A DNA stretch of 64,000 bases from Tubulanus polymorphus (taxonomy: Eukaryota > Animalia > Nemertea). Both the position numbers and the translations under genes were made by a program. The stretch spans positions 5,417,950 to 5,481,949 of the forward strand of contig NC_134026.1 of the NCBI RefSeq assembly GCF_964204645.1, read 5' to 3'. The notes under the pieces are model-generated. The model ran no database searches, had not been told where the DNA came from, and saw only the letters and a list, made by a program, of their open reading frames with translations. Below are positions 22,701 through 64,000 of this stretch, one piece after another; within the stretch, counting starts at the first letter, position 1; the number at the start of each line of letters is the position of its first letter.

Positions 22701-25700
22701 TAAACGACATTCCAGTTGCGAAACTTGACCTCAACATACCTCTATCAGTGCCAGGTTTGTAATCAACCGATAGTTTTTGGCCATTTCGGTTCTGAACTTG
22801 TTACTGAATCTTTCTGTAAATTTCTTATAGGCTTACCGTCGTCCGATGACTATCTTCAAATACACCGCCGACAACAAGAGCAGCTACGCGAAAAAAGGAT
22901 GAAACAGAAGAAAAAGAGGAAAACGAAGAGAAGTCGCAGGCGACACGGCAATGATGAGGAATCCGATGAGGATATACAACCTGCTCATCAAGTCAGTTCA
23001 GTTGTAGATGTTCCTGAGGTAGGATTTATCTTGTTTGTTCATTCTTTTGCGAAACAGCTGCTTGGTTTTGTCAGAACTGCCGGGTACTTGATGACGATTA
23101 CTGTATGATAATTTGTGCACATATTTCAGGGTGCTACTGTTTCCGATAAAGAAGATCACGGAAATCTGACTGATGATGATCCACATCGCCAATTAGATAT
23201 TAATTTAGATGAGTAAGTTGATAACTTTCCCATGTACTCTATATTATTATTTGCTGTAATTAGGCTAACGAATATGCTAACATAGTCACTCTGTTGTGAC
23301 ATTTGGGACTCCCTGCCAGGAGTTGAGATATTTCAATGAAAATGGAGTTTAATGGGCTAAATATCAATTGATTAGAATTACAGCATGTATGATAACCGGA
23401 GTTTCATATTCAGTGTATAGTGAAATAGGTTTCATTCATTCTTTAAACTTTTGACTTCGATTTTGATATATTAGGCCATTGAGGGATGACGAAATATTGC
23501 CAGTTCGTACTCACCGCCAAACACCAGCAACAGCTGAAAACGGCGACGAAGAATCCAACGTCAAACATCGTTCCCATAGGAAGAAAAGCAAGGAAAAACA
23601 CGGCGAAAAAACTAAGAAGGAAAAACACAGCGAGAAGGTATTTAATTAAACCAACTCATTCCGCCAGTATTGGCTCACTGTAAACTGGAAAATATGTGGA
23701 GAATCCCACGATGATGTCAAAAAAATTATATAATGTCCGAAAATCTTTCCTTGAGCTAGTAGTTTATTCAACGTTTCCGCTATTCTAATTGTCATCTTCA
23801 GAAATACTTGGGAGTAATCAGCATTCCTGAAGATGACTATCAAAATATAGTGGAAACGTTATCATTGTGGGATTCTCTACATATTACTATCACAACATCA
23901 TGGATAAAGTGTTTCATCAGTGGTTAAACCGTAAACTGGAGTTTACAGTTTATTGTGAGGGGCTACAGTAAAGCAATCCTTGAATGTACAAAAAAGTTAT
24001 GATTTGTTTTCATCACAAATGTCGTAGTATCAAATAAAAATTACTTTAAAATTTCTTCACTCCTCCCTTATTACATATTAGCCATCGTGTTTTAGAATTC
24101 ATATGTTTCATTTCTGTAGAAACGTTCAAGCAAGAAGAGTAAGAAAAAGAGAGACCATTCATCCGATGCGGGAGCAAATTTGCTCGGAGATTTCCCGGTC
24201 GGTGATCCGGAATCGAGCGTCAAAACACCGTCCGAGTATCAGGAACCAGAACGTGAGAACGGGAAACGAACGCCGAGTCCTGCTCTTTTCGAATCAGTTG
24301 AGCATCCCACGGCGAAAACTGTTGACCTTAGCCCGGTAGCAGATGTGATAGCGCCACCTGGTGGTGAAGAAGAAACGAAAGAAGAGGATAAAGAACAAAC
24401 GGTAATTAGCTTATTGAATAATTATCACTAGAGAAATGTTTATGAAATAAAGTAGGATACCGGTATATATCCCACATTATAAAATTTTGCACTGAATTGT
24501 TCACAGCATAAAAAGAAGAAAAAGAAGGAATCGAAAAAGGAGAAGAAAAGAAAAGAGAAACGAAAGGATAAAAGCGAATACGAGATAGCTGATGGAATAA
24601 CTACACCGTCGAAAGAGGTTCTACTTCCAACTCCTCAGACCACTCAGCTACCCGTGAGTTTCATCATAAATTCATTAACCCTTTCAGTGCTGACTTAATA
24701 ATACCCTAAAGTGCTGAAGATAATTTGAAAATTTTGAAAAATTCCAACCTAGTGTATTGAATAACGGGAATACCACTATAGTGTGTACACACCACGGCGC
24801 GGTGTATCGTTAGTAATTCCATCTTCATTTTTCAGCCGATGTCCAGTTATAAACTTCTCGGTGAAGACACTACTATAAAGATGGTATGTAAACTTGCAGG
24901 CTATTCGATGTTGTTTGGTTGTTTTGGAAAAATTGCAAGTAATATCTAATTGCATGTCAATTTTTCAGATGTCCGAAACACGCGTTAGCCCGCATAATCC
25001 GAATCAAGTTGTATTGTCGGTTATTTTCACCAATCGACTGTCGAACCAAATCAAAGACATGGAACTGAATGTATTAGACTCGCTGAACACGAAACTTGTT
25101 CGAGAGGTGAGTTAATTAGCTTGTCAGAAATGAAAAAAATTTTAATCCTTGTCCTTGTCTTTTCAGACGGAATATATGTGAATAAACATGATAAAAATTT
25201 TGTTATTTCTACTTGATCAGGTTGGCAAGACGGCTCATGACCCGGTGAAAGTACCATTTATTTTGCTTCCTGAGAGTCAGAATGAAGGCCAGTTTGCGTT
25301 CACAGTTGACCATATCAATATGATACAGAGATTAAGGGGAACATTAACATACATTGTCAAGGTATGTTGGATGAATCGTTTTTCTTATCTCGCCAGTAGT
25401 GAGGATTTTGCCTATCTATTTCAAACCTGGATCCAGGGGGTCTTGCGCGAGGGCCACAAACGTTTTGAGTTGCCCTTTTCTGATTGAACTCTTTAAGTTT
25501 TTACTACCTTATTATATGTAATCTTATAAACTTGTCTTGCATAATTTTTGGATAAAGAAAGGTATTCTACATGGAAATGTTTTAGAATGCATCTTGCCCA
25601 ACTACAAATTTCAAAGGCAATGCCTTGTTGATATGCTTCCAATATACCAATGATAGAAAATTGCCCATGAATGTGTCACAAGACCTTCATAAGAAGTCTT

Positions 25701-26742: not shown

Positions 26743-29158
26743 AAACCTGAAATGAATTTATTTTCATGACTTACTAGCTATATTGTGCATTTGAAAGGTT
26801 TTGGGTGTAGCGTTGTTATAAGTAGACCTAAATGGGGCTCATCCCCGGATAACTACAAATTGGACCAAATGGATTATTCTTGTATTCCTACAATAGTATA
26901 AGCATTATGAATTAGATTTGTAAAGGGATTTCAATACCTATTTTTTGAATTACGAAACTGCAGAGAATTATTCTTAAAGTTACAGTTCAAACTTGGAAAC
27001 TTGGCCATTATATTTAGATTATATCTAGTATTGGCAAGACAGAAAATGCCAAGTTGATTTAGTTTCTGGTTTTCACATTAGATGGCGAACTAATCGTTCG
27101 TTACTAAAAACGTCAGGAAAATCCGAAATTTTCCTGTGTAACTCTTAGCAAAATCCTTTCTGAATTATAAATCTTCTGTAAAATCCTTTACACGCTAAAA
27201 ATAAAAGTGAAATTAAACTACTGGTATGAGTAAAATTTGATGAATTATTCAGAATGTGCTCTTGTATTGTTATCATAACTGACTGTATATCGGTATATAT
27301 ACGTATCTGTAAAAGAATGGAATATTTTGTAAACATAATTGCAGCATACCATCGGGTGCCTGGGAACAAAAAGCTTATAACAAACTCGCTGTATGATGAG
27401 CTTTGTGGACAAGTCAAGTTGAGCGTTCGTAAATCATATCATTATATTATATCAAATGAAGTAACGATCATAATTAGTATACTGGCATTAATTCTGGTAT
27501 GCCAATGCAGACGGCTAAACCAGGGTAGTGCTCCATTTCAATTGCAATTTATCACACAGCCTTAGACATAGACATAATATCCTGCCAGCTATCTACGTAT
27601 GTACGAAAGTATGTATTTCTTAAGATGAATTTATCCGGGCAAAATTTCATTAAGAATATTCTGTAGGCGGTTTAGACTTTAATTGAATTGATATGAAACA
27701 ATAACCTAATTAAAAGTTAAACTTTTGTGAAAACCCATCCCCTGGCCCATTTCTGCAGTAATTGTATGACATAATGTTGACAATTGGACCTTTTCCCAGA
27801 ATTGATTTATTCCAGGGGCCAGTTTTTTCAAATTTTTACAAACTTTCATTATTTGCCTATGGTGGCCCCGTCCTTTATTCAATGACTTCGGCAATGAATT
27901 TATCATAATGAGCTATGAGAAATTGGACAAGGTGTTTTATGTTTTAGATTGATTCATTTTCATTGACAACCACTCCTAAAGTAAGTGAATGAATAGCCTA
28001 CGATCGCCGATGACCCAAAGATAAAACTTATGAATGGAAAATCACACATTGCTCATATATAAGCGTATTGTAAATATTATAGTATGATATTGTGTTTTGT
28101 TGTGACATGGCTGATTATTGATTGATCGCATCAGAAAAAGGGTTGGTTATAATACTGTAAATGTATATTATAAATAATATATATCCAAATAAAATAAAAC
28201 CAAATTATAAAACAGCATGTTTACGTTTGTTGTTGATACTGTTGGAAAAGAGGTTTTCAAAGAGGATATTGAAAACAAGCATTTTTTTCCAGAAGCCTGA
28301 ATCAAACAAATCAATTCAAGGCTTTCCGTTTTACGGCCGAGGAATGAATTTGAAATGATCAAATGAGCTTCATTCATATATTCACTATTGTTTACGAGGA
28401 GTGCCCCGCCCGGTATTGATATAAACATTCCAGCAGTAGTATTTGTGTGGGTGCCTGATCGTTCGACCACGTGTTTTTGATTTGATAGTAAACATCGATA
28501 CACCGTCAATGAAACGATACGGCCGCTGATTGGTTTACCAGCGCCACTACCCATGTATCGGTACGCGATGAATGAACCGTGTATTTGCCGTGAGAAAAGC
28601 TAGTTACCACTCGAAAAAACTCATCAAAAACCATAATTAAAGTTTCAATCGCAATCGATTTGCTTCATAAGCGTAAATATTCACTTATAACTCGAAAAAA
28701 GCATGAACGGCTCAGTCGAAACATTTGAATTTGAAAAATAGTTCATATCGCGTGATCGTAAGATGTGACTCGCCCATGTGAGTGAGTTGTGAGTGAGTCA
28801 GCTTCAGTTGCATCGATAGCAAATTCAGGATTATCATCGTTCGGTGGCATTGCATCAGTCGCCTGATCGAAATCGAAAGTATCTGCCTATCGAGAAAAGG
28901 AATTCGCTATAGTTCTTTTAGACTTTGATTAACGCGGTTTGGAGCTAACGTGGTGACCTAGTTTTCCCGAGTTGCGCGGTTTCGCGATCCCCATATCTAT
29001 CTTGGCGCGTTGTGACAACACATTTACAACTAACAGTGCCAGCTCGAGTAGTAGATCGGCTCCGTTTTCTCAACACACTCGACACAAGCTAAAACGTTTT
29101 CAAACTGAGGAAAGAACATATATAGTCCATCGTTGTCGGTGAAAGAAGGAGGATAAAC

Positions 29159-36919
<7,761 letters not shown>

Positions 36920-37873
36920 CCACACCAACTGATAGATGCTCGGAATTTACTATTACAAAACAGCGAGTGGAGTTAATGCATTTATGTTGTCATAGCAACC
37001 AGGCTTGAGACGCGCGTATTATTTTGTATCGAACTGAGAAAAACAGACCACAAACAAACATTTACATTGAAAAGCACGATAGATAACGATGAAAAGATGA
37101 CAAATCATTATTAAAGAATGATTATGATTACTTATGATGTGAATCGACAGGCGCGCCGTTAAACCATGATCGAGTGAGTGTATATATATTTTTGTGATGA
37201 TTAACGATAAGATACCATTGTCTTTCTGGTTGTTATGGTTACGTATGCGTTATAACCATTTTGCTCAAAATGCGCGTGGCAAGACGGAAGGCGTCGCGTA
37301 CACGAGCTAGAGCGACGTTCGCTGCGTGTATTCATTACCCGGATCGACATGCGCGCGGCGTCCGATCGCGTTCGCGCGGGGGGTTTCGGAAGCGGATAGC
37401 ATCGATTTGACGGCTAAAACCTGTGATAAAGTACGATTAGCTGCGGTGTGAGAATTGTTGTTGTGTCAGTGTGGGTATCGTTTAACCGAACTATAAATAT
37501 CTCGAAATGCCAAACGTCTGCCGTGCCTCTATTCGCTAGCAGACGACGAAGATGAATGAACAGACGATACAAACGTTGCGAAATCTTCATATCAGAACAA
37601 TTTCGAGACGATAATAATCTTCTTATCTGTTATTTTCACGGCGGCTCGAGCCGTTTTTGTATCGCGTCTAGATGAAAAAAATAGTCATTGATTATTGACA
37701 AATATATAGTGTATATTTGTTTATTAAGTTGTGTACAACAGACGGATGAAAAAAAAGTCTAACTTTAGTGTGTATGTACGCGTGAAGTGCTTCAAAATCA
37801 CTGATGACCGAAAGTATGCTTGCTTCTTGTCGTGAATGTGCTGATGATAAAAGCTTTAAAAGCTGTCCATATG

Positions 37874-37876
<3 letters not shown>

Positions 37877-37922
<46 letters not shown>
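37877..37922. repeat. (AT)23 microsatellite in the putative VLDLR-like 3' UTR
   Basis: Read directly from the sequence. Confidence 0.95.
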
Positions 37923-37927
<5 letters not shown>

Positions 37928-40900
37928 GATATTATATTATTATTATAAGTAGTATTTATTATGCTAGGGAATCTCTGTGCTTACTCTCGCGTGACTGAAT
38001 GATGAAATAATGTGCTGCCTATCACCCGCCCGAGGGTAGGATTATTTTCTGTTTGTAAATAATGATTGTATAAGATTTTTTGTTAAAAAGAGTTCATTTA
38101 TGTACATATATTTAGTGAAAGCGTGTAAAGGCGTGCTTGTTGTTTGTGTTTGATGTCGATATACGTATTGTTATAAATTTTTGAGTTGACGATTTAATGC
38201 GCAAAAAAGAAAACATTCCCCTATACTGAGCAATGTCTTTCATTGTGGATTTCTGATAATCATAGACACTGCCACTAACCAGTTAAATGCCAACACCCGG
38301 TTACTTTTCTAATCTCATTAGCGGATTGTATATCAAAAATAATCAATAAGTTAATATGCCCTTAGAATTTCACATCTAAGTTAGTTTAGTTGGCTGAAAC
38401 CGTTTTGGTCTGTGCTTTAAAACGATTATTGTAGTTATCGTGACGAAAGACTTGCTTTTAGTAAAACGGGAAGATTTTTGACGATGTAAATGTATTCGCC
38501 TTAACGCGTGTATGCTAGCTGAGATATGCTCTTCGAAGAAGTTTTGAAGTGTAAATGTAGTCACTGATCAAATGATAACGTTTTAAAACTAGGACTGTTC
38601 TATACATAGTTATAATAACGTGAAGTAGGCATGTTTAGACTGAATGAATCGTTCTTATTCTGGCTAAAAGCCAAGTCGGTTTCGTTCACCTTTTCATCGG
38701 AGGTCACACTGCGTACTACTACCACCTACCGCCACCGAGCATAACAACCCGATATCTTCGTGTTGACCCCGTTCTTGTAGATAAAAACCCATTGATATAT
38801 AGATACCGGTATTTCTGGAAAGTTGCGAGAAGACCGCTACGAATTTGTTCAAACTAGTTTTCAAACGTAGGTCATCGAGGTTGTTTACTCATTTCAACCG
38901 AATTGCACGATGCGCAGAAAAACTTCAAACATAGCCAATCATTGTCCTTGATTGATGATATTGCTTGGGCGTTTTAAATTGCATTTAGATTTTGTTGCAA
39001 GTTCATGCTTCTTATGAATGTTGACATTCCGTGTATTAATACGCATTAGGAACATGATGTAAGATACTGTGCAACATCTTGAATACAAATAATAAGCTTA
39101 AGAGTTCAACATCTAGTCCCATAAGGTTTTGGACTTACTTTACCCCGTTGTTTACACCGCAAAATGCTCGAGTCCTTTTAAGATCTGGTCAGGAATAGAA
39201 TACTCTCTTTAGAATGATACGGAAATTCCACCAAATGAAGCGATTTTTCCATTCTTCGCGTGGCAGCTTTTTCTACGTTTCAAACACTTTACTTCTACTA
39301 GTAGATTGTGTACGCTTTGTTATGATTTTTTAACCGACTCGCGTTATTCTTTCGAGCACATGTTCCATTTCGGGGATAGTTAGTTTCCTGTGCATAGAAT
39401 TCAAATATGTGCCTTATTATGTGTAGTTTTTGTGTATTTTCTTGCGTTTTCTTCATTAACTCTTGTTGAGATCAGTTAATCGACGCGCATTACTTGCCGT
39501 GACTTATTGGGTTGAAATAATACGTTGTAGTATGTTTACGACGAATATTCGGGGATTCTTTTGTGATTTGTAAATATAACAAAGCTTTGGGGTACTTAAA
39601 AAAGGATGAACATTACATTAATATAATAAGCACTTTGTACATAACCCTATTTAGTCTATGTTCTATATTCGTTTCAGTAGCTACCTTGTAAATAGTTGGC
39701 AAAGCGAATGCAATTCAAATCATGTATTTAAATTATGAAAGAGCAGTTATCACCGTTGTATGTATGTATGTGTATTGATGCAGAAATTATTGTCAGGTTG
39801 TATATTTTGTGGAAAGTTTGTTTCTTTGCTGAGGTTTGCGAAAGTAGTTGCTACTTTCGAGAGAAATAGTTGTAATTACCCAAGAAAAACTTGAATGGAT
39901 GTTATTGGCTTTTTGTCGAAATGAGTTTGAAGCACTTCATTTTGATATATCACTGTAAAAATGCAGCGCATATTTGTTTTTAAAAAAAGATAAACGAATT
40001 TTTTCATTAAAATCCTAATAAATTATGAAAACATATTCTGTGGCTTCTTTGTTGTTGATATAATATATATATACATCTTTGTGGAGGACTTCATTTTCAA
40101 ATTGAGTGGAAATCGAAGAAAAACTGTTTTTGTTTTCTACGACAAAGGTTTACGATTTATCTGAGGAAAAGTAGATAAAGAGGTAATCGCTTTAAGGACA
40201 TTCTTACTGAGCTCCTTCGTTTAGAGATAATCAGCTGATAAGGATATGGTAAGTTCCTTTGCCAACTTGTGATAATTTTTAAAAATGTGGTGTCAATTTA
40301 ATGCGGCTGGCTCTATACCAAACGACAAACAACATGACACCGTTGAAATGAGCAGGTGTGTCGTCAGTGCGCGCTGATTGGTCGATTCAAACATCAGCCC
40401 ATAAACTACCAACGACACAGTAATTATGACAACAAGCAATACACGATCGCGCGTCGCGCTCGTCTCAAGGTTGATAACATGCATACATAAGTAACTGTAA
40501 AAGAAATAATTCTCGTGAATATATTCACATGATGTGTTATATTAGCGTTTTCAGGCTGTTTGCCAATTTTTTTTCTCAAGATTTGCCAAAAAATATATAA
40601 TAATGCGCTGAAATTAGGTACAATTTGGAAAAACAAGTGTTTGCATTTGCGTTATCCAGTCCTTAATGATTATGTTTATCTAAGATTAGATAATATCAGA
40701 TAACATGTTGACGATCCTTAATTTGGTAAACCTATAGTATCTTATCTCAATAAGACAGGATCTGGTACTCAAAATCCCCGGGTCGCGTATTTAGTCCAAT
40801 GTGTAAACACAAATTCACGCTACAACAAGAACAAAAAAAAATTGTTTCAGCGGCTTTTTAATAAATGTATTCACAAAAAAAACACAGAAAAACAACATTT

Positions 40901-42790: not shown

Positions 42791-43536
42791 GGAGGGCTCA
42801 TATTTTCGTAAAATATATAACTTCTTTGCGGAAATTGCATACTGTATTTTCGTGTTTATGGAGCTTGCTAGCTACACGGTATAAACCATCTCCTTGATAA
42901 ATTGCCTTTTATAGAAAACCCGTCCAGTCTCATTTCATGTGACGACAGATTGAAAATCGACGCACCGCGTAAGAAATAACAAAATACACGCACCACAGTG
43001 TCGGCTAAATATACAACTAAAATATAATTCATTCTTCTCAGCTCCTTTCCGTACAACAGCTTTTATTTAGTCCTTTTTACATAATATTCTTTATCACAGA
43101 CGAATAATATCACAATTCAATATAGACTACATGTGTATAAGATTATTATTGGTAAATAGCACGGATTTGAAGATTATTGCAAACGAACTAATTTGAAATT
43201 ATTACCATTTAAAAACAATACACTCTCTGCCTCCCAACGATCATGTTGATGACGTTGCATAGTAGGACGGCATGACGTCATACAACATTTGAACTCAGCA
43301 GAAGTACGAGAATTAGAATACATCCGAGATTAACTTATAAATATTTACTATACATATCAACGATATCTCAATTATGAATACAGAACAAGTGGGAGTTTAC
43401 GGCACCTCCCTACCGAGATGCGGATTAATGCGCAATGTAGATAATCTCTTGAAAATCGACATTCGAGATTTGATCGAATATAAATATTTTAAACAATAAT
43501 AACAATATGTCCTTTGAGTTTCAAATTGAATCAATT

Positions 43537-45552
43537 TCAACTTTCCACTAAACTTAAAGTGACGGAGCGTTCTCCGTCCAACGATTTCTTCACCTTTTGT
43601 GTGGTCAACGTCATTGCTAACCTCACCTGATGTAACCACGGTTTTTCTTTGAAAGTGTTCGCGACGGATAAACATTTAATCGCGTAGTCTCTGGATTTCA
43701 TACCCCTATATTTCTCGTACTGATCCAAAGTTCGTTGCGCATCGTCCACCTCGTAAACCCCTACGTGATAGAACGGTTTCGGCAAACTGTCTACACTGTT
43801 CATTGGTAACGGGATGCCGTACTCGGCAGACTTCGCTTTGACGAGTAATGCTGCTGACTTCGTCTGCCGCTTCTTCGGTCGTCCGTCTGCATCGCTCATC
43901 GATTTGGCCGATTTCAAATTTTTCGGCCCGCTAGATTCGTTAGGTTTTAATTTACCCGTTTCTAAATAGTTACTTTTCATAGAAGCCGCGCTCGGGCTAT
44001 TCGGTCTAAGCTCGGATGTTTCTGAACCGGTCGAATGCATAGCGAGATTCTGGTGTGACTGACTTTTCGATTTCTTCATCGATGATTGGTTGCCATAGCT
44101 CAGATTCTGCTGTGACTGGCTAACGCGACGGCGTTCTTTGATTGGTGGTAAGCGAACCGAGTCATCGAGCTCATCAGTTGGAGACGTCAGCATCGGGTAC
44201 GTGCTCGATTCGCTATGCCCCGACCTATCACTAGCCTTATCATCTATGATGCTACTTTTGCCCGATTTTAGACCGGCAATAACGGACTTATTCAAGCGAC
44301 CGATTCGAGGCAATTTCACATTAACATTCAACAACCTTCTGAAATAGCCCTCCGGGTCATCGTCATCGATGTCAAGATGTGCCGGCGGCAAGTTCAATAT
44401 TTTCCTATTTTCGATATCAAATCTGGTGATGGCTTTAGATTTAGCTTGCATTTGACACTCGGAAAAGCCGTCGACGTAGACACCCTGTCCAACCAGCGGT
44501 GCATCTTTCTCAGGTCGACGCTTCAAAGAAGACTTATCTAAACCGTAAATCAGTAACGTACGCTCTTTGGCTCGTTCGCCCCAAGCTCTCATCTTGGCGT
44601 ACAGCGACAACGGTACGGACGTCGTCGAATAAGCGATGCGACTCCATTGCTTCGTCAACAGAAATTGCGCGCAATGTTTATGTTTCTGTCGAAGAGCGAT
44701 ATTTAGTGGTCTGAGACCGTTACCATCTTTAGTCATAACTGTACATACGTTGTTATGTACAAAAGCACGCAGTACCCCGAGCTGACCGTTCTCCGTCGCT
44801 TCGTGTACGGGACATTTGAAACTGTCGACGTGTTTCGTTTTCAAGCACCACTGTCGGTACGGGTGTTGCCCAACTGGTTCATCGTGACGAATTCCCTGTT
44901 TCATCAGCGAAATCGCCAGGTCAACGTGGCCAAAATGAGCAGCAATGTACATCGCTACTTTCATCTGATATCTGGCCACGAATTCATCGGCCGATAACTT
45001 AGCCATCATGTGATCGGTAAAACCCATAACCGCCAGTGTCAAAAAGTCGTTCCAGCCATCCCATGTTTCCAGGTTAATCGTATCACCTGCCTGGATGTCG
45101 TACTCATCAAGACCATGTACATCGTACATTTCCCTATCGTCTTTCGTAACCAGACGAAACACCCCGACCGGCAGTCCAGTCTTCTTCGACGCTAATGTCC
45201 TCAATTCCGCTGTGAGCATTTCTCGAATTTTGATCCGTTCCAGAATGTTCAAAGTTTCTCGGTTGTGTACGCAGTAGATGTACAGGATCGGATTGCGTTC
45301 TTCTTTCAGGAAAGCTCGGATCGTTGATCCGGGATTCACGCCGATATCGGTGAGAATCCACTCGTCTCCAAGTTCAGCGCCGCCATAACTGAGAACCAAA
45401 ATATTCTTGGCGGTTTCCATATCTCCGGTAGCTGCATTATTCGGACGGATGAAGAATTTGTCTTGGACCATTACCTTCACATCGGCTACAGTTTTACCAT
45501 GCGGAATGTCCATTGATGCCCGTTCATCTCCGAATGAAACGAATATTCGCAT
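43537..45552 (-). CDS. ANKUB1: Ankyrin repeat and ubiquitin domain-containing protein 1, single coding exon (671 aa)
   Basis: The ATG at 45552 (MRIFVSF...) follows a tttcag acceptor (exon starts at 45560), so the upstream TTG start in the ORF track is intronic. N-terminal ubiquitin-like repeats (LSYGGAELGDEWILTDIG; ETWDGWNDFL) and the ankyrin region (VAMYIAAHFGH, VGQHPYRQWC, KCPVHEATENGQL) match recalled human ANKUB1. A long Ser-rich C-terminal region follows. Confidence 0.92.
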   Translation of the reverse strand: MRIFVSFGDERASMDIPHGKTVADVKVMVQDKFFIRPNNAATGDMETAKNILVLSYGGAELGDEWILTDIGVNPGSTIRAFLKEERNPILYIYCVHNRETLNILERIKIREMLTAELRTLASKKTGLPVGVFRLVTKDDREMYDVHGLDEYDIQAGDTINLETWDGWNDFLTLAVMGFTDHMMAKLSADEFVARYQMKVAMYIAAHFGHVDLAISLMKQGIRHDEPVGQHPYRQWCLKTKHVDSFKCPVHEATENGQLGVLRAFVHNNVCTVMTKDGNGLRPLNIALRQKHKHCAQFLLTKQWSRIAYSTTSVPLSLYAKMRAWGERAKERTLLIYGLDKSSLKRRPEKDAPLVGQGVYVDGFSECQMQAKSKAITRFDIENRKILNLPPAHLDIDDDDPEGYFRRLLNVNVKLPRIGRLNKSVIAGLKSGKSSIIDDKASDRSGHSESSTYPMLTSPTDELDDSVRLPPIKERRRVSQSQQNLSYGNQSSMKKSKSQSHQNLAMHSTGSETSELRPNSPSAASMKSNYLETGKLKPNESSGPKNLKSAKSMSDADGRPKKRQTKSAALLVKAKSAEYGIPLPMNSVDSLPKPFYHVGVYEVDDAQRTLDQYEKYRGMKSRDYAIKCLSVANTFKEKPWLHQVRLAMTLTTQKVKKSLDGERSVTLSLVES

Positions 45553-48500
45553 TTTAGGTTCTGAAAATAGACAAAATTGAAAATAGCCGTCAGTTACTGT
45601 GTCGATATTCAATTTCCAAGATGAAACATAAGCGCAATCGCGTATTTTGTATATTCATGACCCCATGAACGAGGCGAGAAACATCAGAAATCGCCTAATA
45701 AGTAAAAACCCACAGTTGATGATTAGAACGTTTATTGTCTGACAGTTTTACTTATTGACTCTGAATACTGAGATTTTGATATCTCTAGTCATCAGATATC
45801 GCCTCTTTACCGTTACCATAAAACATTAGAGTCATAATAACGAATTTAACTTTACTCCACGCCGTTACTAATTGACGCAACGATCTTCATTTACTACATT
45901 GTTTTAGTTCTGAGGCGCAGAAATAATTTGTAATCAGACACTCATCAAATGGTGATGATACTGGGGGATTTTTAGGTCGAATGATTCGGGCGCGTGGAAA
46001 TCAATAGGTTTACTGGTAATGATCGATGCTTAGTCATCAGAAATATGTTCAGTTTCATTCGACATAGATCGATTACCAATATCTAGCCTGACGACATCAT
46101 TGTGGTTTGTAACGTCGATGTGATGTGAAGACTGTGAACTTTATATCATTCGCAGGACACCTCTATTCTCGCATACTAAATATATACATATTCATTCATA
46201 AGAAATTTCATGTAAACAGCGATTCTACAATGTTACTTGGTGATGATTTTATTATACATCGGTCCGACAAACCGTGGACGTTACACGAACGGGGGTTAAG
46301 TTTTGATTCGAATTAGCAAACTAACCCGAATTAATGGCTTAATCCCTGTTCGCGAAACCGGGCCCGGGCCAAACAGTTGTTCGTATAGTCCACAGACAAA
46401 ACGAAATCTCTACTGAAATGAAAGTTACAACGAGGGACATATGTATGAAAAATAGCTGATGTATATATTGAAATCGATAATTAATACCGACAGAACGAAT
46501 TTACGTTTTTTACTGATATCGTCTGAACTTTCGTAAAGATATACTTTATTGTACAAATTATTAAATTCAATCTAGAAATGCATAAACGACAGTACACAAC
46601 ATTTCTAAGTATATATACCTTTACGTCTTTTGCGAAAAGAGCCGAGCATCTCTAATAGGAACTGGTCCAGTGGCATTTTGAAGGCGGTTATTCCCTCTCA
46701 ATGATAGAACAGTTTTGCGTATATTAATGAGATAAATATTGCTTTCTTAGCGCTTTCTGTTCGTGTTGACTGTAATTATGTGGACGATGTTAGCTGGTTT
46801 TTCAACCGTCACCAAGGTATATCTGTTAGAGAGCTCTTACAGCTATATTCAATGCTTTGACATAAAATCGCAATAAACTCTTTCTTTGTACAAAAACATT
46901 CGCGTGATTTATATTATTTTAGGTTTGGTCACGGTGTAAATTTCAGCGCAGAGGTACTGCTCGGGTTAATTAGGAACCATAAAAGCGGGTCGTACTCGGG
47001 TGAAGTCGACAAATTGAATTTTAACGGTGCTTTTACAGGCATTATTGATATGATTATAATGGTAAAGAAATGAACGAATGAACGAAGGCAAGGTGCATAT
47101 TAAGCATAGCAAATCCCGTATGAATATATGAAATAGCCGTTAAGTGATAAACTCACCAAAAAAACAACTATTCAATGTGTAATATACCAAACCGCATTGA
47201 AAGAGTCTTTTAGACTATGAAAGAAATTACAAAACTATCATACACAATAAAAGAATAGCTTGGTAATATGCATATCTATTATTTCAGGTTTATGAGATTT
47301 CTTTCATGCGCAGAATGAAGAATAACGAAACTTATTAATTAGTTTTCTGCTAGAAAAAATAACTAGCACTCGTTTGAATACTTAGAATACTTTAGTTATA
47401 CAATTTGACAAAACACGAACGCCACATGTAGTCATTTATCGATTACAAGTGGTATTATAGAATAAACGGGTATTCCATAAACACTAAATACACGGGGCAG
47501 ATCTAGAGGGGATGTTCGAGAGGTTCGGATCCCCTGTCATGTCCTGATGTATCCGTTTCGAAAGAAGCTAATACGAATTTAACCCGCAGCCAGACCCATA
47601 TTGGCTGTCTGATACTGACCTAATGCCTAATGCTGTCATAATCTTTTAGGCTCTTGCCCACAAGGTACGAACGTACCCTGCAAAGTCTCGGGTTCCACTA
47701 ATTTTTTTGTTAAAGGATGTTTTCCTACAGATAGCAGGATAGATAGATACTGTAACGGTGAAGTTTGAACAGGCCCAACCCTTCTTTGAAACTAACCCCT
47801 AATGTCTAAACTGTAAATGATAAAATGCCACCCAGTGCCCTTATTGGTGCGGCGATACAACGACTTACTATGAAATTAACTGCAGCAATCAGAGCTGAGA
47901 AATAAGAATATAAAAAACTTACAAATTGTTATTCATGCTTATATTATAATGTACCCAGCTCTCCAGCATCCCGTATATGATTAATAACATTGCGTGGTTT
48001 GCGGCCACTAGTAATAGCTGTTGATAGAATGGGTAACGATGGAAATATAAAAGTAACCCATTAACCACGATCGTAATTGATTAATCTTAACGGAACTCCA
48101 TATGTGGAGTTTCCGGAGTTTCAACTCATAAATCAGCGCAGATTTCTATATATTCCAATTGGTGGCGCATAGATCGGACATAGCCGCAGGTGTTCTCCGT
48201 GAAGACTGGGTAGTTCAAAAAATTATTGAAGACGAAATATAGATTAGTTAGGATATCAATTAACCGGTTATTTCAACGCTTTTAATTACTATATTTGAAA
48301 TTAGAAGAACTTTCTCCGTTAGAAAGATTTATGACATCAGCGAAGTCGACAATGCCTCTCGCGGTGGTCTGGGGGCCTCCTTCGTAAAAAATGACATTTT
48401 CTTACGCTGTAATGTACGTGGCCTTGTTTTTAATCGATTCTTATTCTTATTGCTGAGAGAAAATGAATGTACACCAACTTTTTCTGACATTTGGAAAAAT

Positions 48501-49768: not shown

Positions 49769-50344
49769 TTATTTTGGTGTATGCCTACCTGTCGAATCGA
49801 GGATTAATTTATAATGCATCGAATCACGTCGTTTCATCCCTCTTTTCCTCTGTGAATCCTCTAACCGTTTTTGCAATTCAAAACTAGTCGTAGCTCGAAC
49901 ATTAGGTGTTACCGGCCAGGTCTCAGTTAGAAAAGCTATCGCATCGTTCTTCGCCGGCCGTTCGGGTGGAGTATCTTCGGCAATCACTGGAGTGTGAGAG
50001 GACAGTCTGGACATCATCCACGGTACTATCGATGCGCGCCTGACTATAGATAACCTTCTAGGCGCGGAGGCAGGCGGCCGATACATGAATTCATTTTCCA
50101 AATCAGCGCTATCATTGTCACCGTTTTCATCGTTGCGGTGCAATTCGAGCCTGGTAGATGACTTTCGGAAACCAAACGCCAGTTCATCACGAACTGTTAT
50201 TACCCGATCGTGCGGTATTTCAATCGGGATTTTGGTCGGTTTCTCGTCGCTGAATAATCTTTCCATCACAACCGTTGAAAATCCTTTCAACAAAATACGC
50301 GCAATGATTTTTTCACTTTTGTTAAAATCGAACGAACGAGTTTT
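49769..50344 (-). CDS. Putative terminal coding exon of an uncharacterised protein
   Basis: 576-bp stop-free frame starting exactly at a tttctgtag acceptor (KTRSFDFNKSEKIIARILLKGF...GRHTPK*). Composition is protein-like, with RRLS/RRAS/RRDS basic-kinase motifs. Candidate AATAAA at 48995-49000 (-). No family recognised and upstream exons unresolved. Confidence 0.45.
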   Translation of the reverse strand, partial: KTRSFDFNKSEKIIARILLKGFSTVVMERLFSDEKPTKIPIEIPHDRVITVRDELAFGFRKSSTRLELHRNDENGDNDSADLENEFMYRPPASAPRRLSIVRRASIVPWMMSRLSSHTPVIAEDTPPERPAKNDAIAFLTETWPVTPNVRATTSFELQKRLEDSQRKRGMKRRDSMHYKLILDSTGRHTPK

Positions 50345-53884: not shown

Positions 53885-56800
53885 ATGACCGATAAGAAAT
53901 TCAAAGGAGCCCCGTTCGGCGTTCAGACTTCACGGTAGGGTTAGGGCCTTAATGCTTTAGTTTTCAGTCAGCAGGAGCCTCCTCTCCTCACTCAAGACTC
54001 AACAACTCATCTCTCTTATCTACCTGTTTCTACATATTACCTATTTTACTGTATATATCAGTGCAAAGTTTAGTGGTTATTAATATCTCTAACTTCATAA
54101 TAGCCCTCAATTCAGGCTCGGCTTCCAAATCCTCGCAGTAAAATTATATTCCGTTGAATTATCTATTTTTAGATTTGACGTATCAGGCGTTCATCCGAAG
54201 AGTAAAACACCTGGAACATTTACGCAAATTCCATACGACAAAAAATCAATATGTGAATTGGTAAGTGGCGAAGGAATTGTCAATTTAGAAATATGAGTTC
54301 GCCATTCTAAATCGCTAAATAATCTGGATCAAATTTGTTCTATCTATCTTTCAGAATCGACGCTTAGGCCCGGGTAGTTATCACGTAGATACAGGCGATT
54401 TCTCCGACAAAGCCGTAATCCATCGCGCTTCGGGTCCGGGATGGGCACGAGCTTATGAGGTTTCTAAAATGGCTGCACTTCCACATCTACTGCACAAAGA
54501 ACAATGGGAACTGAAAAAACTGCTTGTAAGTCTATAGCGATCTCTTGTTTAGCCAGGGGCGGATCGAGAGAGTGGTCTCCCTGATCCCTCAGATCCCTGC
54601 TGTCCAATCAAGATTGTCCTTTTAGTTAAGGCAGAGATCAAAGCCTACAAATTTGATTCTATCCTCTCAAAAGCATCTATTGGGATGTATTTCTTCGAAG
54701 ATATCTATTAAAAACAAAGGGTGAGACCCTATAGAGGCCTTTGACATAGCTGCTATATCTGAGAGATACCTTTCATTTTCTTCCGGGGCACGGCGATCCC
54801 TTCCTATATTTGCCCCATCTATTCGATCTGAGGAATCATGGATTTTTTAATTAATCATTTCATCTTTGAAAAGGAGCGGAAACTTGGACCTGGAACGTAT
54901 AACATCAAAGATTTTCTAACGGATCAGCGTCCTCATAGCATTCGTGGTATCTGTCAAACAAAAGAACAAAGATTCAAAGAGCCATCCACTTTAGTAAGTA
55001 TCGGTACCTTTAAATCACTTATAGAGCATTCCTATAGTCCACATATATTTTTGTGATTAGCTTAAAAACAGTAAATTCAGTTTAAGTATAGTTAGTGAAC
55101 CCTGAGGATGACGTATAACTGTAGAATGAGACTCTTTTTGTAATGTCCATTTAGAATGATACACCGGGACCGGGTACCTATGGTAAAGGAGGCGTACCAC
55201 ATGCAGCATTGGAAGAGAAAGGGTTCAAGTCAACTAGTACTGTGGGCATGTTAGACGCCGGTTCATCGCAGCCTAGATCACTTCCGATGGTGGTAAGTCG
55301 CGAAGAAAAAGCCTTCATTACGCACGTTACCCACAAGATGTATGAATTTAAAGATGTTTGATTTTATTCAGGGATCCGATCTTGGACCGGGAAGTTATAA
55401 CTTCGAAAGTTTCACGGATCAAACCGCTAAGAAACTAACGAGTCTACGAGGACCGTATGATCTCTTCACGGGAGAACGCAATAAACCAATCACTACAGGT
55501 CACTACGCATCACCGGTAAGTTTTATATCAGCTGTATTTAGATATTAAGTTAGAATAGTCACCCTTGAAGTGTGTACACAGTTCTGCTGATTTGCCAGGC
55601 TTCTTTTCAGGGCTGTCACAAGGATTTTTCTAAAAGGGGGACAGAATTTATATGAGCGGAATTGCCACGAATTCTTGAAACCTTTTGAATGTTCTTTCAT
55701 AATCTTATATTTTAAATTTGAAGCTTGATAGGGGGGTTTTCTGGACCTTTTTAGGCAAAATATTTGTGAAATTTCTTGAATGTGAAAAAAAAATTTGGAT
55801 CTGAAAAAATGTGGAACTTGGGTTTTAAAAGGGGGTCGTCCGTAACCCTCGACCCTGCTCTGACGATGCCCTGCCTCGACCCAAGTATGCCATGCAGGAA
55901 TTAGGCTCATAGCTTCTATTGACCATCTCCCCATAGTTGCTCAATGAATAGTCTCTCTGTTTTTAGTTGAGTGGCATTAGTTTTTGGTATTGTTAAATTG
56001 GGATTTGTGGTTTCTACAAATCCTCGATGTTTGTTAAAGGTTATAATACACTGTTTTTTGTCTTTTTTTCAGATAAGTCATCTCGGTCCCGGTCAATACG
56101 AGCTGAAATCGTTCCTCGACGATATGACAAGTGAACACAGCAAAAAACAAGGAAAGTTCGGAAAAGTTGAACAATATCCAGCGAAACATAGCGACCGTAT
56201 TTACTGTTGTACACTACCGCAAGTACCACGCAATCCTGTACGTTTTAGCATATTAATTCATAAGTCCATTTGAAATTTCTTGTCAAAAAAGAATTCATGA
56301 GTTATGTTGTGCAAATTTATATTCTCGCAGGAAGATCCGGGCCCAGGAAACTACGATCCCGATAATCCCAATCTGAAGAAACCGAGCTTCGCGAAGAAAT
56401 CCCCCGGTTTCCTGTCGTCCGCTCAGAGGAATGATCGAATCGCGCAGAAATTCTTCACTAGAAACTTTGTAAGTACGAGTCTAACCCCCATTTCATAGAT
56501 CAGGGGCGTATTAAGGGTTTAATGCTTTTACTCATTGCTTTTCTTCTATAGAATCCAGTCGGAGCCGGTCGGTATGATATACAGAAATGGGAAGAATCTC
56601 ATCACATCAATGCGCATAAGAGCGTATTCGATTCGAAAACCGGGCGATATCAACCATCGATGGAAAAGTTCTATAAGTAAGCAGATTTCGCTGAAGTACT
56701 ACTTCGTACAAAGACTATAGCCTATAGTTGCGATCCTTTGAAGGCCCGACGCATGAGGGTTCTAACGAGAATTTAGTTTTGCTAATCAATAGTAATGGAA

Positions 56801-57177
56801 TCTTAAAAATGTTTCAGAGTACATGCCACACATAATCTTAAATTTGTTTATTTACTCGGTTACATTTACGGAAATCGCTCAGAGGCCATATTGAAGCATC
56901 GAATTCTCAAAAATTTCTGTCTGGGAGAAGGTCCAAGATAAAAGCTTCAGTTCCAACCGATGTTAAACACAAACTCACTCGCATATTCCTCAAGCCTGTC
57001 TGCTTGAATAAATCCAATGATGTTTTCATAAAATTTTTCAGAGAGAGAATTCGTGCTAAAGATCTCCGTCCCGAGGACAAAATATGTATCATTCAACCGG
57101 AGACGCCTTCGCAATACGTGCAAAGACAAAAAGACAACACGCCGATGTCAAATCAACGAGCAACGACTGTCGTTTGA
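53885..57177 (+). CDS. CIMAP2: Ciliary microtubule-associated protein 2 / lymphocyte expansion molecule (C1orf177; PGPGxY STPGR-type repeats), 10 exons
   Basis: Exons: 53885-53934, 54173-54260, 54355-54525, 54874-54993, 55155-55292, 55372-55515, 56073-56237, 56331-56468, 56552-56676, 57042-57177 (TGA). Motifs KFKGAPFGVQTSRFD, LGPGTYNIKDFL, RGPYDLFTGERNKP, SDRIYCCTLPQVPRN, NPVGAGRY and ERIRAK are collinear with recalled human LEXM/CIMAP2. Confidence 0.9.
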
Positions 57178-58626
57178 ATAATTATACTCGAAATAAAACT
57201 GCCGATATTCGTCAGAGCTACTGATTTCTTTCAGACAGGTTACACCACCGGTACGCACTAAATACTCGCCCAAATTTTTCTCATTCCGATGGCCGTCATC
57301 TAGGCATAATCTGCGTTTACTTTGAAAATTCCAATAATGATTCGAATATACCCAGTACTCGGTTTTGGAGGGGCTTTGAGTGCAGATGTAATTATTTGAG
57401 TTATATATTATTTTTGTGCTGTGATTTACGTATTTACAAAATATGTTTGCTTTTTATATATACATTCTAATCAAACTGCTAAGACTCTATTGTTAAATTC
57501 TACTCTAATTACTCTATACTCACTGTATATACTATACGTTGATTACCGGTACACATGATTGTTGTTGTTATTTAGTTTTCAATACAAGACACCTTTTTAA
57601 TTTCATGTACAATAATGATTTAATTGATCGACAAAATACTCTATTGATCGTGTCCAAACTGACCAAGAGATGATCTGTGATATTATGAAAAAAGAATTGA
57701 AATAAATTGAATTTTTCAACGATAATATGTTGTTATGAGACTAGAGGATGGTAATTTGATTTGTTTCAAGCTTAACACAGCAATAACTTATCAGTGATGG
57801 GTGCTGATCAAAATATTACCAGGCCCGATATTACCCAGAGGTTGGGTGTAAATGCACTTCCCCGCAAGATCCAGTTCCGCTATTTCTTGTTTAAGAAAAT
57901 CTATGAAGTTTACATTAATTTTCCAGAATAATTACATTTGTAATGACCCTCAGCCAAATGGACCAATCCTCTAAATCCCCAAAAAATTGACTCACCCTCT
58001 GAGATAACATTTTTAGGATGGATTTCTTCAAAATTATCTAAGCCTAGATGGAGGGACCTTACCAGTCGACTCAGACATGGCTATCTTCTGTGAACAAGTC
58101 CATTCCATTCACAGAAGCTCGGCAGATACAGCACATGAAATCAGAAACAAGACTCCTTCGTTTTCTAGTTACCTGCAGAATCGGCAGGTGCAGTCAATGA
58201 ATACCCAGTCTCCACAGATCATAAACTGTACTTATGCATGTAAATTTCTATGGCCTTTGGATCAATGGTTGCTGAACTTCTGTGACCATCCAATATAGCC
58301 ATTTGATTCATCACAATGCCTATGATTTTGTCCAAGGGTTAATTAGTGAATTGTGCCCAACTCAGGGCACAGTATTTGACATGTACCGATAAAGGGTACT
58401 CAATTCAAAGTATCCTTTGTGGATGAATGAGTTTTGTTGGTTTTCGCTGCAACAAATTTGGCCACCACTTTCTTGGGTAGTTGACTAACCCAAGTTCAGT
58501 ATACCCTAATTCAGGATAAATATGTACAGGTCCATGTTTCGGCTACTGACTTGCAAAAAAATACATCAATCCCTTCAAAAACACCATATCACAAAACCAT
58601 TAGAACATTTTCAGCCTAAAACAAGT

Positions 58627-59992
58627 TTTATTAAAGAATTTCAGAATTAGTCGGCCCAACAGGCCACATCGACCATATATAGACCACTTATGCGCAGCTT
58701 ATGGCTGTTATTGGAAGAAAATAATCCTCTAAATAATTGAAACAAAAATAAGTCATATTTACATCGAGCACCAACAGGAAATGTCATAATCTGCCTGGAC
58801 GGTAGCACCATTTTGTGAACTCAGCGGTTTTTGCATAACAAATTGTTCACTCGGGACTAAAAACAATTCCTTTCAAATGAGCTTGATTGTAGTCGAACAC
58901 GATTGCAAAGTTAAAATGGAGACTAGAATTGAAGCTCAATATACTTGGAATCATTCAACATAAATGCATAATGGTGGTAATATCACAGGTTTTGTAATCA
59001 TGAAAGACAACCAAAGACTTCTTAAATGCAATAAGTCCTTTCATGACGAAAGAGACAGTTTGATTTTTGAGATCACTATTTGAACTGGTTTGATTTCACC
59101 ACACGTATGTTCCAACTGCTCAGTTTGGAAGTTCATTAATCTCACCAATTGCGGGCTCCGTTTATTCAAAGAATGTGGTCACCTTTTTGAGCAAAACCGT
59201 TGAAAAGCTGAAGAGCCACTGAATGCGGAAGGCACTTACACACACATCACAAATATTGTGTACGCGAATCAGATACACCTGAAAACCATGGGAGCTTTAA
59301 CTATTCAACTCTAATCAATAACCACCCTTTTCATTGGAATGATAGGAATTCACTGGAATGAAAAGAGTATTCGTTGGAATGCGTGAAATTGCAGCAGACT
59401 GCATTCGGCCTTCACTGACAACAGCAACCTTTCAGCATTTTCAGTTTTTTTTCTCTCCGAACTGTTTTTTTCCAGCATCAGCTCATACCCATCGTACATT
59501 ATGCATTTATCGGTCATATCCATCCGCTATCCAGGCAGTGTGCATACAACATTCACTGCGTCCGTTCTAAACCAATCGGAGTTTGTTCTGATAATCGACT
59601 CCGGTTGGCTTAAATTGCTTTTCGACACTCGGAACATTTTTGTCAGTGCTCTTTTTTCCCCCAAAGCCGCAGTCACATCAAATAATTTCCAGTATGAATT
59701 GAAGTTCTTTTCGAATTGAAAGATATTTGACATAATTGAAGCCGACCTCTGCATCTATAGAGATGTGAACTATATATACATCCCACGTTAAAAACAGTGA
59801 GCGATTTAGAATGTTGTAAAACTCCATTATACAGAGTTAGAATTTGATTTGATTAAACATTTTAACTCGTTGGAACTTGAAACAGAACATCAATCATTTT
59901 TCTTGCAAAGAAACAGTTTAAGTAATTCGAACATTTATACAAAGGAGTACCATACAACTGTTACTCCTCGAGTAGGATTCGTGAGAACGCTA
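58627..59992 (-). promoter_or_regulatory. Putative vasa 3' UTR with dense miRNA seed sites, two Pumilio elements and two AATAAA signals
   Basis: AATAAA (-) at 59161-59166 and 58627-58632; UGUAHAUA at 58756-58763 and 59773-59780; many seed matches (see findings). The UTR end is inferred from the poly(A) signal only. Confidence 0.65.

Positions 59993-64000
<4,008 letters not shown>

What the first reader, a model, noticed from the sequence alone, without database searches (positions are those of the whole stretch)
58712..59588. vasa 3' UTR is tiled with target sites for about 20 conserved miRNA families: a candidate 'soma-exclusion cassette'
Seen: vasa is on the minus strand, so target sites read on the plus strand as the miRNA's own 5' end. 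8-mer matches (nt 1-8 or more): miR-29 TAGCACCATTT 58803; miR-277 TAAATGCA 58961 and 59023; miR-216b-type TAATATCA 58978; miR-2 (K box) TATCACAG 58981; miR-71 TGAAAGACA 59001; bantam TGAGATCA 59068; miR-216a TAATCTCA 59137. 7-mer-class matches: miR-7 58712, miR-29 58767, miR-184 58796, miR-153 58831, miR-219 58884, miR-279 58921, miR-1994 GAGACAGT 59052, miR-315 59059 and 59089, miR-87 TGAGCAAA 59188, miR-124 AAGGCAC 59229, miR-1 TGGAATG 59335/59354/59375, miR-12 59365, miR-76/981 59370, miR-34 GGCAGTGTG 59534, miR-375 59582, and possibly miR-1990 CGGGACTA 58852. My rough estimate for about 40 families over the 340 bp holding the eight 8-mers is about 0.2 hits at uniform base composition, or a few-fold more with AT bias. 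Established: many of these miRNAs mark differentiated tissues (miR-1 muscle; miR-124/7/153/219/71/2 neural; miR-12/216/375 gut), and vasa is restricted to germline and stem cells largely post-transcriptionally. Inference: the UTR acts as a NOR gate, silencing vasa in any cell expressing a differentiation miRNA. I know of no description of such a pan-miRNA array on vasa but cannot search the literature. The miRNA sequences are from memory.
Basis: partly seen in the sequence, partly recalled or inferred. Interest (0 to 1): 0.9.

Follow-up and report, generated by a model that had tools for sequence, protein, structure and literature searches.

The report
Many-microRNA target block on vasa mRNA
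The untranslated tail of the germ-cell gene vasa in a ribbon worm carries 32 matches to 24 different ancient microRNA seeds, more than three times what chance gives, which likely lets the combined microRNAs of body cells hold vasa down, although binding and repression are untested.

Summary
All 27 motifs lie at the stated places. RNA contigs show a spliced, polyadenylated vasa mRNA whose 3' UTR is 58608-59992. The animal is the nemertean Tubulanus polymorphus. Against 52 seeds fixed from a published snail table, the UTR has 32 sites for 24 seeds, nine of them 8-mers. Shuffles give 9.3, 8.2 and 1.6, and 0 of 5000 reach the observed values. Two other lophotrochozoan vasa loci show a similar excess with unalignable sequence and other seeds (L015, 23 sites; L013, 25); seven clitellate-like loci show none. 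Two limits: neighbouring 3' UTRs are also about 1.5-1.9-fold enriched, so vasa is roughly twice its neighbours, not unique. And in oyster data the seeds with sites are no more soma-biased than those without, so a strict differentiation-only NOR gate is not supported. Best reading: a dense multi-family target block that likely sums total miRNA load and represses vasa in miRNA-rich somatic cells. Ten literature searches found no description. New variant of a known kind.

The parts
58608..59992 (-). vasa 3' UTR, 1385 nt, part of the last exon
   Evidence: unspliced cover by RNA contigs of X2, X3, X4; poly(A) loose end at 58608; stop codon
59993..63201 (-). vasa coding exons 59993-60127, 60219-60329, 60422-60691, 61156-61254, 61337-61646, 61923-62208, 62284-62577, 62762-63201; the gene goes on beyond
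   Evidence: splice joints; best named hits DDX4/vasa; zinc knuckles and Helicase_C
58627..58632 (-). polyadenylation signal in use
   Evidence: 19 nt upstream of the poly(A) end in X4
59161..59166 (-). internal AATAAA; its use would remove 18 of the 32 sites (15 seeds); no use seen
   Evidence: RNA contigs of three runs cross it
58712..59381 (-). dense block: 25 sites in about 670 nt, median gap 21.5 nt, 14 of 24 gaps 8-40 nt
58712..58718 (-). miR-7 7mer-A1
58767..58773 (-). miR-29 7mer-m8
58795..58813 (-). miR-184 7-mer next to a miR-29 8-mer that pairs nt 1-11
58831..58837 (-). miR-153 7mer-A1
58853..58859 (-). miR-1990-3p 7mer-m8 (the family may be absent from nemerteans)
58884..58890 (-). 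miR-219 7mer-A1
58921..58927 (-). miR-279 7mer-m8
58961..58972 (-). miR-277 8-mer; pairs nt 1-12 of the oyster sequence, nt 1-9 of the snail one
58978..58988 (-). overlapping miR-216b and miR-2 8-mers
59001..59030 (-). miR-71 8-mer (59001-59008) and second miR-277 8-mer (59023-59030)
59052..59095 (-). miR-1994 7mer-m8, miR-315 7mer-m8, bantam 8-mer (59068-59075), miR-315 7mer-m8 (59089-59095)
59137..59144 (-). miR-216a 8-mer
59187..59194 (-). miR-87 8-mer
59229..59235 (-). miR-124 7mer-m8
59330..59390 (-). three 21-nt look-alike units, each with a miR-1 7mer-A1, interleaved with miR-12 7mer-m8 (59365) and miR-981 7mer-A1 (59370)
59498..59588 (-). miR-1993 7mer-m8 (59498), miR-34 7mer-m8 (59534, pairs nt 2-10), miR-375 7mer-A1 (59582)
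59717..59924 (-). miR-71 7mer-A1 (59717), two miR-315 7mer-m8 (59843, 59848), miR-252 7mer-A1 (59918)

Best explanation
The vasa 3' UTR of this ribbon worm holds 32 seed matches to 24 conserved miRNA seeds, 25 of them in one 670-nt block, and these likely act as selected, additive target sites that repress vasa mRNA in proportion to a cell's overall miRNA load. Shown: the UTR, the sites, their excess over chance and over neighbouring UTRs, and a similar excess behind two other lophotrochozoan vasa genes. Inferred: Argonaute binds these sites, closely spaced sites cooperate, and the mRNA is deadenylated and poorly translated in somatic cells whichever of these families they express. Also inferred: eggs and germ or stem cells escape mainly because they hold little miRNA, perhaps helped by protective RNA-binding proteins. 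The breadth of inputs, not their tissue specificity, would make it work in many somatic lineages.
For: Real UTR with poly(A) end. 32 sites against 9.3 expected, 0 of 5000 shuffles; 2 sites on the antisense strand and 2 in 1942 nt of vasa coding exons. Holds when mollusc-only seeds and miR-1990 are dropped and six more seeds added: 31 sites against 9.5, 0 of 3000. The top two of 256 500-nt bins in the window are this block, 15 and 12 sites against a next best of 7 (24 seeds chosen from this UTR). With all 52 seeds the best rival window has 18 sites. Recurrence: L015, sister to Mya vasa, has 23 sites for 17 seeds. L013 has 25 sites, 13 of them for seeds absent from the window against about 4.6 expected, p 0.001. 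These UTRs do not align with the window's. Variants: 1 event in 58608-59300 against 9 in 59301-59992, none in a site. Oyster eggs: miRNA is 0.90% of mapped small-RNA reads against 87.05% in muscle (PMC4138081). [quoted passage not shown]
Against: Neighbouring presumed UTRs are enriched too. For the 24 seeds: SHIPPO-repeat gene 9 against 2.0, ANKUB1 5 against 1.9, LDL-receptor-like gene 17 against 10.1 with ten 8-mers; two others are not enriched. At a 1.7-fold baseline the vasa excess has p 2e-4, at 2.5-fold p 0.05, so a few such UTRs per genome are expected. Seven clitellate-like vasa loci (24 against 29.4) and a gastropod-like one (4 against 4.8) show no excess. Sites are not more accessible than other positions (p 0.15-0.22). 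Absence of variants from sites is not significant (p 0.08-0.15), and the distal/proximal split was drawn afterwards. Seeds come from a snail and an oyster, not from this species. In Drosophila the one miRNA shown to keep Vasa out of somatic cells acts without a site in vasa (PMC12285543).
Confidence: 0.55

Rival explanations
1. The sites are real miRNA targets, but the UTR is only the upper tail of a genome in which many UTRs are site-rich; they fine-tune vasa and play no special part in keeping it out of soma.
For: 3 of 5 neighbouring presumed UTRs are enriched 1.7-4.4-fold for the 24 seeds. All-seed density is about 17 and 16 per kb in two of them against 23 for vasa. Eight of 14 other vasa loci show no excess, and the general UTR baseline in those species is unknown.
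Against: The block (25 sites in 664 nt) stays at p 2e-4 even at a 2.5-fold baseline. Breadth (24 seeds in 1.4 kb) exceeds the short neighbours (6-7 seeds). The excess recurs in L015 and L013.
Confidence: 0.17
2. The sites work mainly inside the germline: miRISC binding stores maternal vasa mRNA in a silent, stable state or brings it to germ granules, and somatic decay is secondary.
For: Seeds relatively abundant in oyster eggs and blastulae (miR-2, -71, -279) have sites. In C. elegans a miRNA reporter is destabilised in soma but stabilised in germ cells (Dallaire 2018, seen only as summarised in PMC8882679).
Against: The four most abundant oyster egg seeds (miR-183, -96, let-7, -92) have no site, and eggs hold little miRNA. 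Muscle, gut and nerve families would be pointless in oocytes (tissue labels recalled).
Confidence: 0.12
3. Strict NOR gate: only differentiation-specific miRNAs are inputs, and any one of them is enough to switch vasa off.
For: Seeds with a site account for 6% of listed egg reads and 50% of adult reads; the top four egg seeds have no site.
Against: That contrast is due to miR-1 alone (5% against 9% without it). Egg/adult ratios do not differ between seeds with and without sites (p 0.84). let-7, miR-125 and miR-10 have no site. L015 carries an 8-mer for miR-183, the top egg and larval seed. Single sites typically repress only modestly (PMC6836737, abstract start in the listing).
Confidence: 0.1
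4. The abundant vasa mRNA acts on the miRNAs, as a sponge or a trigger of miRNA decay, lowering miRNA activity in germ cells.
For: Two sites pair beyond the seed (miR-277 nt 1-12 with the oyster sequence, miR-29 nt 1-11), and bantam and one miR-1 site show 3' pairing by eye.
Against: By eye only 7 of 22 m8-type sites extend to nt 9, about what chance gives. One or two sites per family are few against a cell's whole target pool (recalled argument).
Confidence: 0.04
5. Chance or base composition.
For: The window was picked from a very large scan; seeds with sites are more AT-rich than those without (mean 3.0 against 3.9 G+C of 7, counted by hand).
Against: Composition-matched shuffles and mock seed sets never reach the counts, and the signal is strand-specific. 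No repeat explains it beyond the miR-1 triplet.
Confidence: 0.02

Closest known systems
miR-430 clearance of germ-plasm mRNAs (nanos1, tdrd7, dazl) from zebrafish soma, relieved by DAZL (PMC2759513, passages)
   Same: A germline mRNA whose 3' UTR carries miRNA sites that would repress it in soma.
   Different: One early zygotic family there; 24 seeds of lasting tissue and broad families here. That paper names vasa as cleared through its UTR but, in the passages seen, not as a miR-430 target. Nothing is tested here.
miRNA target hubs (Shalgi 2007, PMC1914371, passages)
   Same: More than 15 families on one UTR; high density.
   Different: Hubs were defined by conserved sites in mammals, tend to have longer UTRs and are enriched for transcription and developmental regulators. 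Here it is a 1.4-kb UTR of a germline helicase, with site conservation untested.
Drosophila miR-932 keeping Vasa out of testis hub cells (PMC12285543, main text read)
   Same: miRNA-dependent exclusion of Vasa from somatic cells.
   Different: Indirect, one miRNA, one cell type; the authors found no site in vasa.
K-box, GY-box and Brd-box arrays in Drosophila Enhancer of split and Bearded UTRs (recalled, no call)
   Same: Short UTRs with several miRNA families; miR-2 and miR-7 sites shared.
   Different: Three families on Notch targets, against 24 seeds on vasa.

Membership tests
Canonical animal miRNA target sites | Located in a transcribed 3' UTR, on the mRNA strand, clear of the stop codon | tested here: met
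   nearest site 74 nt from the stop; 2 antisense sites
Canonical animal miRNA target sites | 8mer, 7mer-m8 or 7mer-A1 match to a mature miRNA seed, above chance | tested here: met
   9, 13 and 10 sites; 0 of 5000 shuffles
Canonical animal miRNA target sites | The miRNAs exist with these seeds in this species | not testable with these tools
   no genome held, none in the window, no nemertean table found; seeds taken from snail and oyster
Canonical animal miRNA target sites | Sites conserved or under purifying selection | tested here: inconclusive
   no alignable relative; 0 of 13 variant positions in sites, p 0.08-0.15; excess recurs clearly in 2 of 14 other vasa loci
Canonical animal miRNA target sites | Accessible context | tested here: inconclusive
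   unpaired probability 0.110 against 0.092, p 0.15-0.22
Canonical animal miRNA target sites | Argonaute binding and seed-dependent repression | not testable with these tools
   needs CLIP and reporters
miRNA target hub (Shalgi 2007) | More than 15 families on one UTR | tested here: met
   24 of 52 seeds; cut-off, set for mammals
miRNA target hub (Shalgi 2007) | Sites conserved, and gene in the tail of the genome-wide distribution | tested here: inconclusive
   densest of 6 UTRs in the window, but 3 of 5 neighbours are also enriched; no genome-wide set
miR-430-type clearance of germ-plasm mRNA | One dominant early zygotic family with repeated sites | tested here: not met
   sites spread over 24 seeds; the dominant early oyster seeds miR-183, -96, -92, -242 have none
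miR-430-type clearance of germ-plasm mRNA | Protective RNA-binding-protein elements active in germ cells | not tested
   only two Pumilio-type motifs noted (consensus recalled)
Differentiation-only NOR gate | Inputs are absent from germ cells and inputs differ from non-inputs in soma bias | tested here: not met
   oyster proxy: 23 against 33 seeds, p 0.84
Trigger of target-directed miRNA decay | Seed plus extensive 3' pairing with a central bulge | tested here: inconclusive
   by-eye comparison: partial for miR-277, miR-29, bantam, one miR-1 site

The most novel reading that the evidence does not exclude
A pan-miRNA load sensor on vasa is a recurring lophotrochozoan device: nemerteans, bivalves and at least one more lineage keep a dense block of sites for many ancient families, rebuilt with different seeds in unalignable sequence. 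It ties the germline and stem-cell gene vasa to the rise of miRNAs at differentiation and shuts it off in somatic lineages without a dedicated clearing miRNA; clitellates appear to lack it.
Probability: 0.3. Interest if true: 0.8.

Novelty: new variant of a known kind. Interest (0 to 1): 0.55.

Why it matters
How vasa becomes confined to germ and multipotent cells in spiralians is open; vasa mRNA marks the 4d lineage in molluscs (PMC5508042) and no miR-430-like mechanism turned up in the searches. A 670-nt block gives a direct handle: one reporter with and without seeds in a spiralian embryo tests whether ancient tissue miRNAs together exclude a stemness gene from soma. It would also be a natural example of function kept while individual sites turn over.

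Tried and rejected
No whole genome is held, so no genome-wide UTR ranking. No Rfam match in the window: the motifs are not miRNA genes. No run was on record as RNA; the spliced contigs supplied the transcript evidence instead. Variation data rest alone; further individuals were not read. BLASTN found no homology between this UTR and 14 other vasa downstream regions. Accessibility gave nothing. Use of the internal AATAAA at 59161 was not seen, but contigs cannot exclude it and 19 loose-end rows were hidden. The second-best window, 25516-26900, is AP3D1 exon and intron, not a UTR. Of 119 metagenome loci, 31 had a recognisable vasa-type C-terminus. 25 were scanned and six with under 260 nt downstream were left out. 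14 entered the pooled count. Eleven were dropped as duplicates (L012, L064, L032, L050), long-branch copies (L046, L079), or short or divergent helicases (L017, L040, L066, L067, L073); none of these showed an excess. The two pooled groups were drawn after seeing counts. No nemertean miRNA table was found. Oyster supplement 3 held novel miRNAs and was not used.

Full report
Gene and transcript. The minus-strand gene at the right end of the window is vasa: exon 61340-61645 has DDX4/vasa proteins as its best named close hits, up to 77% identity, and other exons carry CCHC knuckles and Helicase_C. The frame ends in the acidic tryptophan tail with a stop at 59993-59995. Of 4 runs laid, X2, X3 and X4 give contigs spliced at seven introns. 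They cover 60127 down to 58684, 58615 and 58608, with short breaks between contigs in X2 and X4, and X4 ends in poly(A) at 58608, 19 nt past an AATAAA. The four runs are at most 3 samples and 2 studies. A neighbouring ANKUB1 frame is 100% identical to a protein named Tubulanus polymorphus, next Lineus at 60%, so the animal is a nemertean.

Seed list. I fixed the list before seeing the k-mer index, from Table II of PMC7328434 (snail; Results section read): the dominant arm of each hairpin, collapsed by nt 2-7, without miR-1260 and miR-199a, giving 52 seeds. Each was looked up by eye in a 6-mer index of the UTR. 24 of 52 have at least a 7-mer, in 32 sites: nine 8-mers, thirteen 7mer-m8 and ten 7mer-A1. 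Oyster Table S4 (PMC4138081, all nine parts read) confirms the seeds, apart from nt 8 of miR-375 and with miR-184 not listed, and adds six seeds without a 7-mer site.

Chance. Dinucleotide shuffles give 9.3+-3.0 sites, 8.2 seeds and 1.6 8-mers; none of 5000 reaches 32, 24 or 9. Mock seed sets matched for G+C and CpG give 8.8+-3.1; none of 20000 reaches 32. Seeds without a site entered these nulls as composition-matched random 7-mers. The antisense strand has 2 sites for the 24 seeds, and vasa coding exons have 2 in 1942 nt. The oyster table classes miR-1984, -1985, -1986 and -2722 as mollusc-only and miR-1990 as neotrochozoan. Dropping these and adding the six oyster seeds leaves 31 sites for 23 of 53 seeds against 9.5, 0 of 3000. 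Twenty-five sites fall in 58713-59376, with a median gap of 21.5 nt.

The fair control. Among 1227 sliding windows elsewhere the 24 seeds give a mean of 4.7 and a maximum of 13; the best one reaches 18 with all 52 seeds. But presumed UTRs of neighbours, placed by stop codon and polyadenylation signal (RNA-supported only for the SHIPPO-repeat gene), are often enriched for the 24 seeds. SHIPPO-repeat gene 9 against 2.0, ANKUB1 5 against 1.9, LDL-receptor-like gene 17 against 10.1, AP3D1 1 against 1.5, an unnamed gene 3 against 2.7. The other 28 seeds add 0, 3 and about 8 sites to the first three, by eye. The local baseline is thus about 1.5-1.9-fold and vasa 3.4-fold. At 1.7-fold, p is 2e-4 for the UTR and 5e-7 for the block; at 2.5-fold, 0.05 and 2e-4 (Poisson, no overdispersion). 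vasa is the densest and, per length, the broadest of six, about twice the local baseline, but a genome may hold several such UTRs.

Other vasa genes. A vasa-specific motif fetched 119 metagenome loci; 25 were scanned and 14 non-redundant ones pooled (rows left out are listed under Tried and rejected). UTR ends are unknown, so the first 1411 nt after the stop were used. L015, sister to Mya vasa (98/83), has 16 sites for the 24 seeds against 5.0 (0 of 300) plus 7 for the other 28, densest where the contig ends. L013, in an unplaced clade, has 12 against 5.5 (2 of 300) plus 13 against about 4.6 in 1550 nt (p 0.001). L036 (11 against 5.7), L016 (9 against 5.1) and L035 (9 against 5.4) lean the same way; L059 and the gastropod-like L019 do not. 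Pooled, these seven give 66 against 35.7. Seven loci of a clade placed weakly beside Enchytraeus give 24 against 29.4, and sequence upstream of the stops gives 64 against 63. The grouping was made after seeing counts, and no control UTRs exist for those species. None aligns with the window's UTR, so what recurs is density, not position.

Selection within the species. One search lists ten variant events in the UTR: one in 58608-59300 and nine in 59301-59992 (binomial p 0.011, split chosen afterwards). None of 13 variant positions falls in the 242 nt of sites (p 0.08-0.15). By the contig totals, about one X1 variant in this part of the window is unlisted. This is weak support.

Which miRNAs. With oyster expression as a proxy, 23 seeds with sites and 33 without have the same egg-to-adult, blastula-to-adult and gonad-to-adult ratios (p 0.84, 0.84, 0.49) and the same abundance (p 0.85). 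The four top egg seeds have no site but the next four do. Sites cover 6% of listed egg reads and 50% of adult reads, but 5% and 9% without miR-1. So the inputs are broad rather than differentiation-specific. What differs between egg and soma in that paper is the total: 0.90% against 87.05% of mapped reads (passages).

Mechanism. Shown: a real UTR with a dense, strand-specific excess of canonical sites. From established miRNA biology: such sites add up, and close ones can cooperate (PMC3467055 and PMC6836737, abstract starts in the listing). Inferred: the block reads total miRNA load and holds vasa down in somatic cells, while miRNA-poor germ cells escape (0.55). Rivals are ordinary fine-tuning (0.17), germline storage (0.12; PMC8882679 passage on Dallaire 2018), a strict NOR gate (0.10), a sponge or decay trigger (0.04) and chance (0.02).

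Known work. It works like miR-430 clearance of germ-plasm mRNAs (PMC2759513, passages) but fails that system's one-family feature. It meets the family count of a target hub (PMC1914371, passages), with conservation untested. The Drosophila miR-932 effect on Vasa is indirect (PMC12285543, parts 1-2 of 3). Ten searches of the open library (listings only unless stated) showed no multi-family array on vasa. Most subscription journals are not held, and supplementary target lists were not searched. PMC5508042 and PMC11213123 were seen as passages. The scan's own notes hold nothing on vasa or this place but do hold other dense site clusters, unchecked.

Verdict. Observation confirmed and extended; interpretation partly supported; new variant of a known kind; interest 0.55.

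Noticed in passing
window 58978-58987, 43105-43114, 57676-57685: The 10-mer made by overlapping miR-216b and miR-2 sites occurs three times on the two strands of the window, each time as a target in a real or presumed 3' UTR (vasa, ANKUB1, SHIPPO-repeat gene); a weaker form is in L015.
   Followed up: partly
window 36920-40040 (+): The presumed 3' UTR of an LDL-receptor-like gene has ten 8-mers among 17 sites for the 24 seeds.
   Followed up: partly
window 57178-57720 (+): The 3' UTR of the SHIPPO-repeat gene, tail to tail with vasa, has 9 sites against 2.0 expected, three for miR-12 and two for miR-2.
   Followed up: partly
window 58960-58973 and 59497-59510: A perfect 14-nt inverted repeat joins the first miR-277 site to the miR-1993 site 523 nt away; pairing would mask both.
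   Followed up: no
window 59324-59390: The three miR-1 sites sit in 21-nt units of 76% identity, suggesting tandem duplication, and two lie in a 19-bp imperfect hairpin.
   Followed up: no
window 59161-59166: Internal AATAAA just upstream of the densest part of the block; a germline isoform ending here would lose 18 sites. No use seen.
   Followed up: partly
window 58756-58763 and 59773-59780 (-): Two Pumilio-type elements (consensus recalled), one beside a miR-29 site.
   Followed up: no
L016 6473-6872 in vasa orientation: Seven sites for the 24 seeds in the first 400 nt after the stop, then few: possibly a short dense UTR.
   Followed up: no
window 58011-58057, 58393-58444, 61036-61068: Short dispersed repeats, seen as loose ends from other contigs.
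   Followed up: no
window 62748-63201 and 63856-64000 (-): vasa N-terminus with five CCHC knuckles, the middle three near-identical, and FSSGGG-type repeats further up.
   Followed up: no
window 1740-26742 (+), 30057-36919 (+), 43540-45654 (-), 49772-50344 (-), about 54300-57177 (+): Gene order: AP3D1, LDL-receptor-like gene, ANKUB1, an unnamed frame, SHIPPO-repeat gene, then vasa.
   Followed up: partly
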